Below, piece after piece: positions 38,482-63,997 of a stretch of 64,000 nucleotides of DNA. Under the pieces are notes generated by a model. The model was not told the origin of the DNA and did not search any database. It saw nothing but the letters and a program-made list of their open reading frames with translations. Source of the stretch: a virus; the IMG/VR virus record IMGVR_UViG_3300022745_000025, positions 7,012 through 71,011 of that record. The stretch is one strand, 5' to 3'. Made by a program: the position numbers and the translations under genes. Position 1 is the first letter of the stretch; every line of letters begins with the position of its first letter.

Positions 38482-41400
38482 TCGCCTCCAAACAGTTCTT
38501 GAACTGCTTTCAAGATGACGGCATCGTCTACCACCTCACCCACCTCGACAGGGCATGTGAAATCCCTGCCAATGGCGATTGAGCTGACGGCAGGGATACA
38601 CATGTCCGCGAACGGGGCAGTCATGTGCTTGTGCATTTCACGAATGAAAGGAACAACCTGATCGCGGTGCACACTGGCCACACATTCATCGTGGATGGTT
38701 GCAATGAACTCCGCGTCAAACTCTCCAGAGGTAAACAACCCAGAGGACCACATCCGAGACATGGCCAGCTTCACCTGAGCTGCAGAACTCCCCTGAATGA
38801 CTGCGTTACAGGCTTGGCGTTCGGCTCTGGACTCTTCTGACCTGTCTGTTGAACTAAGGGCTGCCGCTAGGTGTCTCCGGTCTCCTAAGAATGTCCTCGA
38901 GTAACCCAACAGGTGGGCCTCCTCGGTGACCTTGTCTTTCCACTTGTTGACTCCCGGGAAGGCTTCATCCAAAGCGTCCAAGAACTTCTGGGCGGTGTCC
39001 TCATCTGTCTTCAGCTGCAATGCCAGTTTCGGAGCTGCAATACCGTAGATCGAGCCAAACAGCGTGGCTTTGGCTCCCTTTCTGAGGGCGTCTGCCTTAT
39101 CTCTGATGGCCTTATCAGAAGACTTTCTCATCGCCATGAAGTCTTCGTAGGTGATGGTCTCACCCCATACGTACGGAGCAGCTCTCACCGCTACCAGCGA
39201 GTGCACGTCCTGCTTCTTTTCACCTACATAGCAACCAATCAGGTTCTGGTCCTGACTTGCGTGCGCAGTAGCTCGAATCTCCTGTGCGTTGAAGTCAAGG
39301 CTTACAACAACAGCTTCGTCGTGGTGAGCTTTCAGCACCGCCCTGAAGCCAGACACCGAAGGCAACTGCTGCAGGTTTGGGTCGCTGCTCGAATACCTCT
39401 TGGTCACTGTGGCGCATTGGTTGAAGTTGGGGTGGATACGCCCATCAGACCAATGCACAACCTTCTTGTAGGTGTTGTAGAACATCTTCATCCGCGTGGT
39501 GACCTCCTTGATCTTGAGGTACGCCTTGAGGACCTTGCGCTGGTCGTCGGTCAGGTCGTCCTTGGCCAAGGCCAAGTCGATGGCTTGGTCGTCCGTCGAC
39601 GCTTTCTTCTGCCACATCTCCCGCATGGCATCCGTGACCTCGACCTTGCGGCCTTGGTTCAGGCGCTTGAGGGCGCTGAACGCCTCACGCATCTCTTCGT
39701 TCTCACGCTCTTTCGGGGTGAGCTTGTTGTAGATGCGGGGCACCATGCCCAGAGAGCCGTACAGCAACTTCTGCACCTGACGTGGCGAGTCGAAGTTGAT
39801 CTTGGGCTCACCGTTGAAGTGACGGTCGACGAAGGCGTTGAGCGCGACCACAGAACCCTGCTCCACGGCCAGTGCGATGGCCTCGGCGGTCTCGTTGTCG
39901 GGGAACTGGAGACGCAGGTCGGCGGCCACGGCTGGCAGCTTCTTCTTGCGGGTGGTGAACTCCTCGCCCAGAACGATCTCGCACACCTGCTTGACGGCGG
40001 CCACATCCACGTCCTCAAACACCGGCTTCACGGTGCCGGACCAGCCTTGGGTGAACAGGTAGTCCCGCAGGATTTCCCAGTTCGTCTGGTAGGTGGCTTT
40101 GTCTTCGCGCTCGAGATCCATCAACGTCTTAAGGTCGACACGTACTCCCTTGACGAAGGCCAAGTTGGTCAGATACATGGGCAGCCTCTCGACTTGGTCG
40201 AATACGGCTGCAGTCTGCTCGACTCCCATAACCCGGCGGAACTGCACATGCAGCCAAGCGGTGACGATGGTGTCGTCGCAGCCGTAGTTCATGACGCGCC
40301 GGCCTGTCAGCTCGCACATCTTGTACTGCTTCTTGTACCAACCGTCCTCAGTGACGGCGGGCTTGGTCTCGATGGTGCGGGTCACTTCCACCATCTGCTC
40401 CTCGACCTCCTCCAGTCTTGTCACTTCCGTGTACTCGGCAGGCTCCACCGTCTTGGTGAACGGCCCAGCCACCACGATGCCGCCCGGGAGGATGACGTCG
40501 AGGGGGCCTTCCATGGTCGTCACCTGCTCATAGGTCTCCTGCTCGTACCCTAGAACCGCCTTGGCCCTGTGCTTCAGTCCTCTAGGCTGGTTCTCGTCGA
40601 CGTAGGATGCTTCAACCATCGTGTCAACCACGTTTGGCAGGAAACCGAACCAACCGTTGTCCTTCCACTTGTCTCCCCACGCCCGATGCAGTACGGGCCC
40701 CTCAAAGGCTGCGTTGTGCACGATCAGGTCGACAGATTTCGGCACTTCTTCCACCATTTCGCGGCACTGGTCTACGGAAATGTTCTCGGTGTCGGCATGG
40801 TTTACGCTCATGTAAACCGTGTGCTGCAGGTTGTCGCCGAAGGTCAGGGACATTCCTGTCAGCTCTGCACCCAAAACGTCGACCTTCTTTCCTCGTGCGC
40901 CGATGTACTCCAGCCACTCGTCGGACGCCTCGCCAGACGATGTCTCGATGTCCAAGGAGACAAACTCGGTCTTCTCGAGGGCGGACTTGAACCTGCTGCG
41001 GGCGGAGGCGTAGTTGAGGGCGGTCACCAAAGTCTTGGTGCCGTACCAGTGCTTCATCTGCGGGATGCGCTGCTCTTCAGGCACCTCATTCCACGGCATG
41101 GCCATGGCTGGCACCCAATCAATGGCGTGGTGCTTGGTGGCCACCTCGTCAGGCATCAGGCGTGCCACCTGCCAGCTCTTGTAGACCAGATCCTCGCTGT
41201 CGATGATCTTCTGTAGCTTGGGGAACTCGGATACATCCTCGCGCAGCTTCTTGATGTCTTGGCTGAGGATCAGCTTCTCGAGCATCTCGAGTCCATCGAG
41301 GCCGAAGATGCGCACCAGCTCCACAAAAGACGCATCCCCGAAACCGCGAGCGCCGGGGATGTTGTCAGAGGTATCGCCCACCAGCGCCTTGTAGAGCGTG

Positions 41401-61445: not shown

Positions 61446-61600
61446 TTCTTGCTCCTGAAAGAGATCCAGCACTTGGCGCAATACCATTTGGCTGGGGACA
61501 TCTGGATGCCGCCCTCAGGCAGGCGGAGTTGGAGGCATTTGCTGCGCTCCCGTTCTGCGCCCTCGTTCTTGAGGGATCCGGGTAGGTCGACGGTCCTCAT
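61442..61600 (-). CDS. Small hypothetical protein
   Basis: PEGGIQMSPAKWYCAKCW; coupled ATG. Confidence 0.5.
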   Translation of the reverse strand: MRTVDLPGSLKNEGAERERSKCLQLRLPEGGIQMSPAKWYCAKCWISFRSKK

Positions 61601-62514
61601 AGGTAGCAATTCCCCGCGGTGATTTCGTGGAACTCGCCCTCCCAGAAGATATGAACGTCGCGTCCGTCGATGACGATGGCGGGAACCTCGATGCCAAGTT
61701 CCTGCTCCTCGAGCAGCGAGAACTTGGCGCCCTCGCAACTCGTCCGCATGACGGAGATTGCCCGGGCCTTCTGGTCTAGACTCAGGGTGGTGTTATGGAT
61801 GTCGCTCAGATTGCGTTGGGCGCGCTTTTGGTACTCGACCCACTCTTCGTTGTCGTCCATGACGACGACGGGGAGGGTGAAGAAGTCACGCTCGTCGATC
61901 TCGTCGCAGACAAAGGCGGCACCGTAGCCGCCGTCGCTGTACCAATTGAACCCAGCGGCGTGGATGGAATCGACGCGGGCGGCGTCACGCCAATACTCGT
62001 GAGTGATCTTCAGTGCGTAGGGCTTGGTGAAGCCCCACCGGGCGTCACACCCACCGTGCACCATCACAATCAGGTGAGTGGGCTCGTAGTCATCGTCGGT
62101 GTACACCTCCCAGAACTGGATGTCCTGACTGAGATCCCAGTCGGAAGGTGAGTTGTAGGTGTAGGTCACCCTCGGCTCACACTCGGTGGAGAACTCGGTG
62201 GCGACCTTCTCGGCGGTGTCGAACCAAGTGCCATCTTCGTCGGCGTCGATGGCAGCCTGCATCTCGGCGTCGGGTTCGAAATTCAGTTTGAGCCAGTGGT
62301 ACAGGCTGATGCTGGCGGTGTAGCCCTGAAGGCGGCCCTTGTAGACCTGCCAGTCCACCGTTGTGCTGGGCTCCGACTCGAAGTCCTTGCCTTGGTTGCG
62401 CTGCCAGGCTCGGCCGTAAATGCCGCCAGAGTCAACGATGCAGCTGCCGGTGTTCTCGGTCAGCATTTGAGCGGCCAATTCGGCCATCGATGTTTGGGTC
62501 ACGGTCGTGTCCAT
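61597..62514 (-). CDS. Hypothetical protein (305 aa)
   Basis: LTENTG...DSGG.YGR.WQRNQ; preceded by the conserved leader. Confidence 0.65.
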   Translation of the reverse strand: MDTTVTQTSMAELAAQMLTENTGSCIVDSGGIYGRAWQRNQGKDFESEPSTTVDWQVYKGRLQGYTASISLYHWLKLNFEPDAEMQAAIDADEDGTWFDTAEKVATEFSTECEPRVTYTYNSPSDWDLSQDIQFWEVYTDDDYEPTHLIVMVHGGCDARWGFTKPYALKITHEYWRDAARVDSIHAAGFNWYSDGGYGAAFVCDEIDERDFFTLPVVVMDDNEEWVEYQKRAQRNLSDIHNTTLSLDQKARAISVMRTSCEGAKFSLLEEQELGIEVPAIVIDGRDVHIFWEGEFHEITAGNCYL

Positions 62515-62518
62515 GGTT

Positions 62519-62552
62519 GGTTCACTTCTAAAAATGCCTCAATACGAGGCGA
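62519..62552. repeat. 34-bp direct repeat copy A
   Basis: GGTTCACTTCTAAAAATGCCTCAATACGAGGCGA, identical to 63214-63247. Confidence 0.95.
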
Positions 62553-62917
62553 AAAGGGTGGTGACTACTCGCTGCGTCAGGTGGGCCTAGTCAGTACCGG
62601 CTGTGAACCGGGTGAAAAGGGGAGTCGTGTTCCACCTGCATCCGCTTTCGATCACCAAGGAAGCCGGCCGGTCTGGACTCCCGGCACCTCCGCGCTATTT
62701 GCTCGGCGGGCTACTTCTAAACCCCACGGCTTTCTTGGTGACCCCCGGCCTTTCACCGGGGTGGTTGTCAGGGCTTACACCTGCATCGGCCGGGTCGGTC
62801 CCAACCTAGATCCGTAGCGTGGATCGGACGGCCTGATCACAAGGGAGAAAGGGGAACCCTTGCTCAGGCTGCCGGTGTTATTGTCCCCACCGCCGGCTGG
62901 GGTCTCAGCGTGGTCAA
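62553..62917 (-). ncRNA. Candidate large structured ncRNA
   Basis: ORF-poor intergenic region with about 10 helices and several crossing pairings found by eye. Confidence 0.6.
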
Positions 62918-63208
62918 TCAGTTCGCATGGAGTCGGAGAGTGGTGACGGGCTCACCGACTTTGGTGTAGGTGTCGACGATTTCGGGCGGAGCTTTGAGCT
63001 CAGCGGCAACCGACCTCCAGTCGACAGTGATTCGGGGTTTGGATGTGGAGATCACGGCCTTGACGAAGGTGCCCTTGATGGTGGGCTCACCGGCCGCCAC
63101 TAGCTGTGCTTTGAGTGTGGACATCTCGGCTTCCACCTCACTGATGTGGGCGTGGAGCTCAGCGTACCGGTCAACAATATCCGTCATGGAAACAATGCTC
63201 ATAGTCAT
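62918..63208 (-). CDS. Hypothetical protein (96 aa)
   Basis: Preceded by the 34-bp repeat leader; MTMSIVSMTDIVDRY. Confidence 0.6.
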   Translation of the reverse strand: MTMSIVSMTDIVDRYAELHAHISEVEAEMSTLKAQLVAAGEPTIKGTFVKAVISTSKPRITVDWRSVAAELKAPPEIVDTYTKVGEPVTTLRLHAN

Positions 63209-63213
63209 GGTGT

Positions 63214-63247
63214 GGTTCACTTCTAAAAATGCCTCAATACGAGGCGA
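63214..63247. repeat. 34-bp direct repeat copy B
   Basis: Identical to 62519-62552. Confidence 0.95.
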
Positions 63248-63254
63248 GGGATGG

Positions 63255-63283
63255 ACTGTATTGCAACCTGGGTCGAGGTGCAA
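63255..63283 (-). promoter_or_regulatory. Sigma70-like early promoter with overlapping inverted repeat
   Basis: Minus strand TTGCAC-17bp-TACAGT; TTGCACC...GGTTGCAA imperfect dyad. Confidence 0.6.
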
Positions 63284-63997
63284 TCAGGTGGGAATATGCT
63301 TGTGGAAGAAGATGCGTTCGACCTTCTTCTTGGACGCCCCGTGGGCACGAAATCCGATAACTGCTTTGCGGTCCTTGCTCTGGCACAGGCCGCAGTCCTT
63401 GCATTGCACGGACTCGGAGATGGTGGCTGGGCAGATGGCGACGTGCCGACCATTGGGCGTCTTGAGTGCCTTGACCTGGTCGATAGGCAGGGCGGTGACG
63501 ACGGGGCCGATGCCGAGATCCATGTAGGCGTCAACTTCGGCGAGGGTCTCACTCGAGAGGTTGATCGTGAGACCGGTACCGCGATTGACCTCCCGAATGA
63601 TGTCGTGGTTGCGAAACTCGAACGGATCGAAGTGGCTGAAGGTGAACCCATCGGTGTGCGATGAGGCTTCAGCCAACATCCTGAGCGAGCGCACATCGAT
63701 CAGGCCGTCATCCGCCTTGGGCAAGTCGCCCGCTTGGGCGTGCCGCCATAGAGTGGCCCTGCGCAGGCTGGAGATGTGGTCGCAGGTCTGCTCAATAGTT
63801 AAGCCTGCCGACGGGTCGTCAAGTTTGCGCCATTGGAGGGCCATTGGCCCGCCGGCTGCAGCGTAGCAGCCGCCACCCTTGTATGAGCACTCGTCGGGGC
63901 AGCTGTAGCGGCTGATGGTTGTTGCTGGGATAGGGCCCAGCTTCCTGTTTGATGACACCTTAATGAAGGCGTAGCGATGCCTGGAAATAGATTCCAT
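63284..63997 (-). CDS. Cys-cluster protein (GP88/DUF7227-like, putative Fe-S)
   Basis: SSNRKLGP...SCPDECSYKGGGCYA, WRHAQAGDLP, CPA...CKDCGLC. Confidence 0.5.
   Translation of the reverse strand: MESISRHRYAFIKVSSNRKLGPIPATTISRYSCPDECSYKGGGCYAAAGGPMALQWRKLDDPSAGLTIEQTCDHISSLRRATLWRHAQAGDLPKADDGLIDVRSLRMLAEASSHTDGFTFSHFDPFEFRNHDIIREVNRGTGLTINLSSETLAEVDAYMDLGIGPVVTALPIDQVKALKTPNGRHVAICPATISESVQCKDCGLCQSKDRKAVIGFRAHGASKKKVERIFFHKHIPT

What the first reader, a model, noticed from the sequence alone, without database searches (positions are those of the whole stretch)
62553..62917. Candidate ~365-nt multi-pseudoknot ncRNA in the early region
Seen in sequence (plus-strand coordinates; RNA read on the minus strand, downstream of the 63255-63283 promoter). 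A 15-bp helix (62652-62666/62727-62741, one mismatch) closes a four-way junction with hairpins at 62667-62685, about 62690-62706 and 62708-62724. Further hairpins lie at 62743-62761, 62769-62783, 62793-62806, 62809-62825, 62831-62869 and 62597-62611. One downstream strand, GACUCCC-CUUUUCA (62626-62613), is complementary in tandem to two upstream hairpin loops, GGGAGUC (62682-62676) and UGAAAGG (62755-62749). CAGGUGG/CCACCUG (62638-62632/62584-62578) crosses UGACUA/UAGUCA (62593-62588/62567-62562), a topology recalling group I intron P3/P7 (GACUA/UAGUC) but with no P4-P6 domain. Inference: a folded functional RNA (ribozyme, scaffold, anti-defence RNA or protein sponge) that I cannot match to a known class. 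High GC can create chance helices, but the tandem loop-strand matches are hard to attribute to chance.
Basis: partly seen in the sequence, partly recalled or inferred. Interest (0 to 1): 0.88.

Follow-up and report, generated by a model that had tools for sequence, protein, structure and literature searches.

The report
Modular structured phage RNA, Proteo-phage-1 relative
The 400-base gap between two early genes of this freshwater phage encodes a real, conserved, heavily folded RNA that is a long, divergent relative of an orphan phage RNA motif (Proteo-phage-1) found in hundreds of phages, including P22, and its function is still unknown.

Summary
Six syntenic relatives, whose flanking proteins are only 50-93% identical, keep the RNA with compensatory base changes: 14 of 43 pairs in the 5' domain and 7 of 31 in the four-way junction.

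The 5' end is an H-type pseudoknot followed by a hairpin with a pyrimidine-rich loop. This core recurs in more than 117 viral contigs and about 80 bacterial species (prophages, mostly Proteobacteria). It aligns below threshold (20 bits, cut-off 42) to Rfam RF03044, Proteo-phage-1. I also found an unannotated relative in phage P22.

That tail is replaced in the closest relatives, and its matches are no better than chance (22% of shuffles). No ribozyme, group I intron or tRNA signature was found.

The RNA is sense-oriented and lies in the 3' UTR of a 96-aa gene. Contigs from two metatranscriptome libraries cover its 5' domain. In three relatives an intrinsic terminator follows it.

My best guess is a cis-acting operon-internal control RNA that binds a conserved host factor. 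A stable trans-acting RNA carrying swappable modules is nearly as likely.

This scan has met the same superfamily before in at least 32 other genomes.

The parts
62918..63208 (-). Upstream 96-aa gene. The RNA starts 15-18 nt after its TGA stop, so it lies in this gene's 3' UTR.
   Evidence: ORF list. Weak match to the C-terminus of phrog_434. Syntenic small gene in L019-L025. The RNA-library contig X7 spans 62800-63143.
62869..62904 (-). H-type pseudoknot. S1 pairs 62900-62902 with 62886-62888. Loop CAGCCGGCGGU. A-rich linker. S2 pairs GCCGG (62893-62897) with CCGGC (62871-62875).
   Evidence: S1 pair 3 covaries in 177 unique homologues: 95% paired against 48% when shuffled. S2 compensatory variants are GUCGG/CCGAC in L023 and four other loci, and GCCAG/CUGGC in P22. 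Aligns to RF03044 hairpin 2 plus its 3' tail.
62831..62869 (-). P2/P3 extended hairpin with a pyrimidine-rich loop (UUCCCCUUUCU) and GUGA on the 3' side.
   Evidence: 6 of 7 P2 pairs are compensatory across 19 diverse phages. 80% of 130 cores carry CUCC/CCUC/CCUU(U)C here, against 38% of shuffles. The core model R1 scores 73 bits on 62829-62906.
62809..62825 (-). P4 hairpin, loop ACGCUAC (ACGAGAC in relatives).
   Evidence: 3 of 4 pairs compensatory. A hairpin with the same loop type recurs in unrelated phages L037, L043, L139 and L240.
62788..62806 (-). P5 hairpin GGUUGGG/CCCGGCC.
   Evidence: 100% of cells paired, with one-sided G-C/G-U/U-A changes consistent with RNA pairing on this strand.
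62769..62783 (-). P6 hairpin, loop UGUAAG (UGAAAG in relatives).
   Evidence: 2 of 4 pairs compensatory.
62743..62761 (-). P7 hairpin CCCCGG-UGAAAGG-CCGGGG.
   Evidence: 100% paired, 1 compensatory pair. Short unrelated contigs in DNA runs X4 and X6 match 62742-62794 only.
62652..62741 (-). Four-way junction domain. A 15-bp closing helix P8 encloses hairpins P8a (loop UAGAAGU), P8b and P8c.
   Evidence: Alignment A2: 7 of 31 pairs compensatory, 96.8% paired. Present only in WIN, L019, L020 and L021 among 3 Mb of related loci. Not tRNA-like according to ARAGORN or Rfam.
62553..62651 (-). Variable 3' tail.
   Evidence: Different in L019. Replaced by 67-75 other bases in X4 and X6. The loop matches are at chance level.
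62518..62552 (-). Leader element before the next gene: hairpin GCCUC-GUAUU-GAGGC plus U5 (terminator-like), then AGAAG and the start codon. An exact 35-nt copy lies at 63213-63247.
   Evidence: The hairpin covaries in relatives: GCCCUC/GAGGGC and GCCCA/UGGGC.
61597..62514 (-). Downstream 305-aa gene (phrog_11344, unknown function), used as the synteny anchor.

Best explanation
Shown. Window 62652-62904 (minus strand) encodes a genuine, evolutionarily maintained structured RNA. It consists of a 5' H-type pseudoknot, a P2/P3 hairpin with a pyrimidine-rich loop, four further hairpins, and a four-way junction closed by a 15-bp helix. It is a long, divergent member of a phage RNA superfamily. The front module of that superfamily is what Rfam calls Proteo-phage-1. 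Accessory modules come and go between close relatives. The RNA lies in the sense orientation, 15-18 nt behind the stop codon of a 96-aa early gene. No promoter of its own was detected.

Inferred. The RNA is made as part of the early-operon transcript and acts in cis on that transcript or on the transcribing complex. The compact, sequence-invariant pseudoknot would bind a conserved host factor such as RNA polymerase/Nus, Rho, an RNase or the ribosome. That binding would decide whether expression continues past the terminator or terminator-like hairpin that follows it, into the 305-aa gene and the downstream genes on the same strand. This is a put/nut-like or attenuator-like logic. It is not a ribozyme, an intron or a tRNA mimic.
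For: Covariation in every helix.

The nucleotide sequence is conserved although the flanking proteins are only 50-59% identical.

The core occurs in more than 117 viral contigs and 86 species genomes. It is co-oriented with the coding strand in 98 loci against 5. The upstream stop codon often lies 2-23 nt before it, and the next start codon lies about 70-90 nt after the pseudoknot.

The flanking genes differ between phages but are mostly replication or recombination genes. This argues for a generic transcript-level role rather than control of one specific gene.

In L020, L021 and L024 the RNA is followed directly by an intrinsic terminator, and no promoter consensus stands before the next gene.

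The classical relative in Pseudomonas phage phiAH14a sits in the late leader between two terminators. The P22 relative lies inside the late operon.

RNA-library contigs cover 62727-62901 and 62800-63143, and nothing else in a 2-kb stretch.
Against: No experiment bears on the function, and the binding partner is unknown.

Across all cores, terminator-like sites are no more frequent downstream than upstream: 22 against 18 of 144.

The window's own copy lacks a strong terminator.

In GC-rich prophages the core lies in frame inside apparently real ORFs. That is awkward for an element that must fold on nascent RNA.

The many accessory domains are more than a simple cis switch needs.

Contigs from RNA libraries do not prove transcription, because DNA carry-over is possible.
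Confidence: 0.4

Rival explanations
1. A stable, trans-acting non-coding RNA. It would be released from the 3' UTR by termination and processing, and would serve as a protein-binding scaffold or sponge. The conserved pseudoknot core would be the scaffold. The long-stem-closed inserts (the four-way junction here, other inserts and even a tRNA in relatives) would be exchangeable payload modules, for example decoys against host defence or RNases.
For: Terminators follow the RNA directly in L020, L021 and L024. The classical relatives are terminator-bounded units of 230-260 nt, and Rfam types RF03044 as an sRNA.

The modular gain and loss of domains between relatives, and the tRNA-Leu embedded in L020, imply that the parts work separately after processing.

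The 175-nt RNA-library contig starts at the base of the pseudoknot.

Earlier agents of this scan described swappable cassettes on look-alike stems in this family.
Against: Most cores have neither their own promoter nor a terminator, and sit tightly between cistrons or inside ORFs. No target or partner is known. The four-way junction is restricted to four loci.
Confidence: 0.32
2. An intercistronic mRNA stability or translation element. The mechanically stable triplex-like pseudoknot would block RNase scanning or exonucleases. Alternatively, the anti-Shine-Dalgarno-like loop would sequester ribosome-binding sites and so tune expression of the neighbouring cistrons.
For: The CUCC/CCUUUC motif is enriched in the P3 loop, 80% against 38%. 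In AT-rich phages the upstream stop codon and the downstream ribosome-binding site are both close by. The A-rich linker and invariant G-C pairs are typical of compact pseudoknots (from my own knowledge of luteoviral and riboswitch pseudoknots).
Against: In the window the next start codon is about 315 nt beyond P2. Within the window's clade the loop is not consistently complementary to the downstream leader. Strict sequence invariance of the pseudoknot loops is not needed for a mere roadblock.
Confidence: 0.15
3. A DNA-level element, such as a single-strand initiation or origin structure in the replication module.
For: It is frequently located among helicase, SSB, polymerase and recombination genes. 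It tolerates being inside ORFs.
Against: G-U pairs occur on the sense strand only. The classical relatives are bounded by terminators. Relatives also lie in late operons of P22 and phiAH14a. RNA-library contigs cover it. The pseudoknot topology is unusual for DNA.
Confidence: 0.06
4. Chance helices in a GC-rich spacer or a decayed gene, with no function. Alternatively, a self-cleaving ribozyme or group I-like intron.
For: The folding z-score is only -2.29. The 3' tail pairings are at chance level.
Against: There is extensive compensatory covariation and wide conservation. No ribozyme or intron family matched at E<=10. There is no split gene to be spliced.
Confidence: 0.04

Closest known systems
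Rfam RF03044, Proteo-phage-1 RNA (candidate sRNA, function unknown; from the motif set of Weinberg et al. 2017, PMC5737381)
   Same: Hairpin 2 carries the loop AGCCGG..GUG, and the 3' tail AAnAACACCGGCAGCC is identical in the window. Both occur in phages and prophages of Proteobacteria. Loci matching a pattern I derived from the RF03044 consensus share downstream modules with the window's family: P2/P3 with a CUCC loop, a hairpin with an ACGNNAC loop, and a GAAAGA hairpin. The core model R1 cross-detects one subgroup of them at 30-37 bits.
   Different: The window scores 20 bits against a cut-off of 42. It lacks the family's first hairpin. Its loop reads CAGCCGGnGGU rather than AUAAGCCGGuuAGUG. 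It carries about 190 nt of extra conserved structure, including a four-way junction. The Rfam model covers only the first 82 nt of what are much longer RNAs.
Unannotated relative in Salmonella phage P22 (NC_002371, 40196-40330, after rha in the late operon)
   Same: It has the same pseudoknot topology, with S2 compensated (GCCAG/CUGGC), the tail AAAAUAACACUGGCAGCC, P2 GCCAC/GUGGC, an ACCUCC loop and a GAAAGA hairpin.
   Different: It lies in the late operon, not the early one. It is compact (about 130 nt) with no four-way junction. The R1 score is weak (15.6 bits, E 0.05 in 42 kb).
Cis-acting antitermination RNAs of lambdoid phages (HK022 put, lambda nut/boxB); works-like comparison from my own knowledge
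   Same: Both are sense-strand structured RNAs inside phage operons, upstream of terminators and long gene strings. Relatives carry G-C-stemmed hairpins with GAAAGA or GAAGA loops that recall boxB.
   Different: There is no sequence or model match. Contact with RNA polymerase or Nus factors is untested. Some copies lie inside ORFs.
GOLLD and ROOL, large phage-associated RNAs often next to tRNAs
   Same: Both are large, ornate, phage-borne RNAs of unknown function. Some family members abut tRNA genes, and L020 embeds a tRNA-Leu.
   Different: There is no Rfam match to either. The window's RNA is much smaller and has a different architecture.

Membership tests
Rfam RF03044 Proteo-phage-1 | Covariance-model score at or above the gathering threshold (42 bits) | tested here: not met
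   20.1 bits in the window, 22.3 in L020, 20-26 in other carriers.
Rfam RF03044 Proteo-phage-1 | First hairpin (model positions about 7-34) | tested here: not met
   Deleted in the window's alignment to the model. A weak candidate exists only in L020.
Rfam RF03044 Proteo-phage-1 | Second hairpin whose loop contains GCCGG, plus the conserved 3' tail AACACCGGCAGCC | tested here: met
   Loop-tail pairing is supported by compensatory variants.
Group I intron | P3-P7 pseudoknot with P4-P6 domain and flanking exons | tested here: not met
   No Intron_gpI match at E<=10. The proposed P3/P7-like pairs lie in the non-conserved tail. No split gene is present.
tRNA or tRNA-like element (for the four-way junction) | Cloverleaf with T-loop and D-loop signatures, detectable by ARAGORN or Rfam tRNA | tested here: not met
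   ARAGORN found none in the window. No tRNA match at E<=10. The closing stem is 15 bp.
Known self-cleaving ribozymes (twister, pistol, hatchet, HDV-like, hammerhead) | Match to the family model | tested here: not met
   No match at E<=10 over 62300-63300. Cleavage itself is not testable here.
Metabolite riboswitch | Conserved aptamer consistently upstream of functionally related genes | tested here: not met
   The downstream genes are diverse: HTH proteins, methyltransferases, DpdA, polymerase, exonuclease and lipoprotein. Some copies lie inside ORFs.
Processive antitermination RNA (put-like) | Acts in cis on RNA polymerase to suppress downstream terminators | not testable with these tools
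   The only support is positional. Terminators follow the RNA in L020, L021 and L024 and in phiAH14a.

The most novel reading that the evidence does not exclude
The conserved pseudoknot core is a universal docking scaffold, and the long-stem-closed inserts are exchangeable RNA payload cassettes. Here the insert is the covarying four-way junction. In relatives it is a different insert, an extra domain or even a tRNA. These cassettes would be an RNA counterpart of phage accessory ('moron' or anti-defence) genes, swapped between phages at a fixed slot.
Probability: 0.2. Interest if true: 0.85.

Novelty: new variant of a known kind. Interest (0 to 1): 0.55.

Why it matters
An orphan 82-nt Rfam motif turns out to be the front end of a much larger, modular RNA superfamily. 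The superfamily is carried by hundreds of phages and prophages across the Proteobacteria. It sits inside early/replication or late operons, and it is present in the model phage P22, where it is unannotated.

The pseudoknot sequence is invariant across hosts with 40-70% GC. This points to a conserved host target. Finding that target would reveal a general layer of phage gene control or host manipulation that works through RNA.

This window adds a well-supported long variant with a new four-way-junction module. It also gives direct evidence that modules are exchanged between near-identical phages.

Tried and rejected
- Rfam at gathering thresholds over the whole window gave nothing. A relaxed search gave only the sub-threshold RF03044 match.
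- blastn of the region against 50,697 phage records gave no match.
- nhmmer and blastn against the DUF7227-anchored loci L004-L018 gave nothing. Relatives came only through the 305-aa protein.
- RF03044 was searched in 5 carrier genomes and in 151 genomes of the same class as one carrier, a Pseudomonas (Gammaproteobacteria). No match reached the threshold.
- nhmmer with the four-way junction against 3 Mb of family loci found only the three close relatives.
- Frameshift or read-through signal: the distance from stop codon to pseudoknot is not kept in frame, there is no slippery site, and any extension would be at most 15 aa. Rejected.
- Pairing of the P3 pyrimidine loop with the GGnGG segment of the pseudoknot: no covariation. 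Rejected.
- Kissing between the P7 loop (GAAAGG) and the P3 loop (CCUUUC): not maintained in L021, L022 or L024. Left as unsupported.
- Enrichment of terminators downstream of the core across the family: none.
- Sigma-70 promoter scan of 62300-63400: none found.
- The supplement of Weinberg 2017 is not held, and the main text does not discuss Proteo-phage-1.
- Literature searches for the motif name and for sequence strings found nothing relevant.

Full report
**Setting.** The window is bases 7012-71011 of a 76.7-kb, 96%-complete viral contig. Near-identical sequence occurs in freshwater metagenomes. The phage is a siphovirus with a 2661-aa tape-measure protein. Its polymerase, primase and helicase genes lie on the minus strand.

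The finding lies in the 403-nt gap 62515-62917. Upstream is a 96-aa gene (62918-63208). Downstream is a 305-aa gene (61597-62514). Both are on the minus strand, downstream of a DUF7227 gene.

**The observation.** The energy is only modestly better than that of shuffles (z = -2.29, 2 of 100 shuffles as good). Folding alone therefore proves little. No Rfam family reaches its threshold and no tRNA is present.

**Relatives.** Homologues of the 305-aa protein at 93% to 50% identity led to seven contigs with the same gene order: DUF7227, small gene, gap, 305-aa gene. The gap varies from 142 to 599 nt. Its sequence is conserved at the nucleotide level even where the flanking proteins are only 50-59% identical.

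On the alignment of the 5' domain, 95.2% of cells pair, against 26-51% when the partners are slid. 14 of 43 pairs change on both sides.

The four-way junction is present in the window, L019, L020 and L021. There, 96.8% of cells pair against 22-49%, and 7 of 31 pairs are compensatory. These changes are spread over the closing helix and two of the three hairpins. G-U pairs occur on this strand, so the folded strand is the sense strand.

These are few sequences and they are related to one another. The shuffle counts are therefore not probabilities. Even so, the slid controls and the number of double changes are clear.

**What is not conserved.**
- It differs completely in L019, whose neighbouring protein is 93% identical.
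- In two 2025 freshwater DNA runs the flanks match at about 93-95%, yet exactly 62554/62563-62653 is replaced by 67-75 other bases.
- In dinucleotide shuffles of the tail, 75% give at least one loop match of 7 bp or more, and 22% give two within 16 nt.

The "tandem loop-strand matches" are thus not beyond chance.

**The core module and its family.** The relaxed Rfam search aligned the window's first 36 nt to the two ends of RF03044, Proteo-phage-1 (20 bits, cut-off 42). In L020 the alignment shows what is shared: the family's second hairpin, whose loop contains GCCGG, and the tail AACACCGGCAGCC. The loop GCCGG pairs with the tail CCGGC, which makes an H-type pseudoknot.

Most of the genomes are alpha-, beta- and gamma-Proteobacteria. 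The several Nocardia hits lie in a conserved coding gene and look unrelated.

Evidence for each part of the core:
- **S1.** In 177 unique copies the third pair covaries (GC 102, CG 49, UA 9, AU 6), 95% paired against 48% when shuffled.
- **P2.** Across 19 diverse phages, 6 of 7 pairs are compensatory.
- **S2.** A U in the loop strand was always accompanied by A in the tail: four genuine loci plus L023, and no U.G case. The one-sided C.A variant occurred in one or two loci. P22 has GCCAG/CUGGC.
- **P3 region.** The region enclosed by P2 carries CUCC, CCUC or CCUU(U)C in 80% of cores, against 38% of shuffles.

None of 20 carrier loci holds any Rfam family at this element.

A second pattern, which I derived from the RF03044 consensus, hit more than 120 further contigs. 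Whether these loci reach the family's threshold was not scored, so "classical" below means matching that pattern. They are units of 230-260 nt with a terminator before and after. They share downstream modules with the window's family: P2/P3 with a CUCC loop, a hairpin with loop ACGNNAC (62809-62825 in the window), and a GAAAGA hairpin.

My core model R1 scores 73 bits on the window. It scores 64 on Ralstonia phage DU_RP_II, 47 on Cronobacter phage JK004, 30-37 on one classical subgroup and 14-18 on the other.

The window's RNA is therefore a divergent, extended member of a superfamily of which the Rfam model describes only the first 82 nt.

**Context.**
- The core is co-oriented with the coding strand in 98 loci against 5.
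- In AT-rich phages the upstream ORF stops 2-23 nt before the core, and the next gene starts about 70-90 nt after the pseudoknot.
- The neighbouring genes are helicase, SSB, RecE/RecT-like proteins, methyltransferases, DpdA, DNA polymerase and a Cas4-type exonuclease.
- In GC-rich prophages the motif lies in frame (Q-P-x-V..N-T-G-S) in the linker of ORFs that look real.
- In Pseudomonas phage phiAH14a the classical form lies in the late leader, in this order: promoter, terminator, small ORF, RNA, terminator, lysis genes.
- Following a lead from earlier notes of this scan, I found an unannotated relative in P22. It lies right after rha, with all the core features.

Terminator-like sites are not enriched downstream of cores in general: 22 against 18 of 144. 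In the window's own clade, however, L020, L021 and L024 have a terminator directly after the RNA. No sigma-70 consensus precedes the next gene in the window.

**Expression.** Two metatranscriptome libraries from different studies each hold one contig on this 2-kb stretch. One is 62727-62901 (100% identical), starting at the base of the pseudoknot. The other is 62800-63143, joining the 96-aa gene to the RNA. This fits co-transcription and accumulation of the 5' domain. Contigs cannot exclude DNA carry-over.

**Modularity.** Within the clade, modules come and go:
- L022 has only the 5' domain.
- L023 has only the pseudoknot, P2/P3 and one hairpin.
- L021 and L024 carry insertions between P4 and P5.
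- L024 has a different insert on a 14-bp stem.
- L020 adds another long-stem domain, a tRNA-Leu(CAA) and a second copy of P7.

Earlier agents of this scan described the same behaviour as swappable cassettes in other genomes. Those notes hold 33 findings in at least 32 genomes, so the scan has met this superfamily before.

**Mechanism.** Nothing here identifies the partner or the activity. The facts that constrain it are these:
- The element is on the sense strand and lies inside operons.
- It has no promoter of its own.
- It is indifferent to which genes flank it.
- Its pseudoknot loops are invariant across hosts of very different GC content.
- It carries an exposed pyrimidine-rich loop.
- In several lineages it is followed by a terminator.

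I therefore favour a cis-acting, host-factor-binding control element of operon expression, with read-through or attenuation logic (0.40). A stable trans-acting scaffold carrying exchangeable modules comes next (0.32). An mRNA stability or translation element follows (0.15). DNA-level, chance and ribozyme readings are unlikely. The frameshift and loop-pairing ideas were tested and dropped.

**Verdict.** This is a real, conserved, structured phage RNA and a new long variant of a known orphan kind. The extra pseudoknots and the intron analogy are not supported.

Noticed in passing
window 62518-62552 and 63213-63247 (a third copy, 88% identical, at G000:C1:75681-75714, outside the window): An exact 35-nt direct repeat brackets the cassette of 96-aa gene plus RNA. 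It consists of a short hairpin (GCCUC-GUAUU-GAGGC), a U5 run and AGAAGUGAACC just before the start codons. The hairpin covaries in relatives. It could be a weak terminator or processing site, or a recombination seam for cassette exchange.
   Followed up: partly
L020:2655-2740: A tRNA-Leu(CAA) gene is embedded inside the homologous RNA locus of a relative, between two RNA modules. tRNA processing would therefore cut that RNA into separate parts.
   Followed up: partly
L054:3720-4331, L059:426-1730, L062:9849-11006 and others: In GC-rich prophages the pseudoknot-P2/P3 core lies inside long ORFs, in the same reading frame in 13 of 16 examined (Q-P-x-V..N-T-G-S), within a low-complexity linker between two protein domains. 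This suggests dual coding of an RNA structure and a protein linker.
   Followed up: partly
window 62443-62454 (weak R1 match 62411-62476): The 12-mer AACACCGGCAGC of the pseudoknot tail recurs inside the N-terminal coding region of the 305-aa gene, where it encodes E-N-T-G-S. The core model gives a weak match there (13.8 bits, E 0.94). This may be chance or a remnant.
   Followed up: no
L370 (phage P22, NC_002371) 40196-40330: The RefSeq record of P22 annotates nothing between rha and orf25, yet a compact member of this RNA family lies there.
   Followed up: partly
L145, L157, L163, L176, L188, L213, L221 (Nocardia genomes): The pseudoknot search pattern also matches a conserved stretch inside a Nocardia coding gene. 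That stretch lacks the P2/P3 context. It is probably an unrelated coincidence and should be excluded from family counts.
   Followed up: no
window 62712-62720 (P8a loop): The loop UAGAAGU of one four-way-junction hairpin repeats the core of the early-gene leader UUUAGAAGUGAACC. The loop is CAGAAGU in L020 and L021, whose leaders read UUUAGGAGU (L020) and UUUGGAGU (L021). The likeness is therefore only partly maintained.
   Followed up: partly
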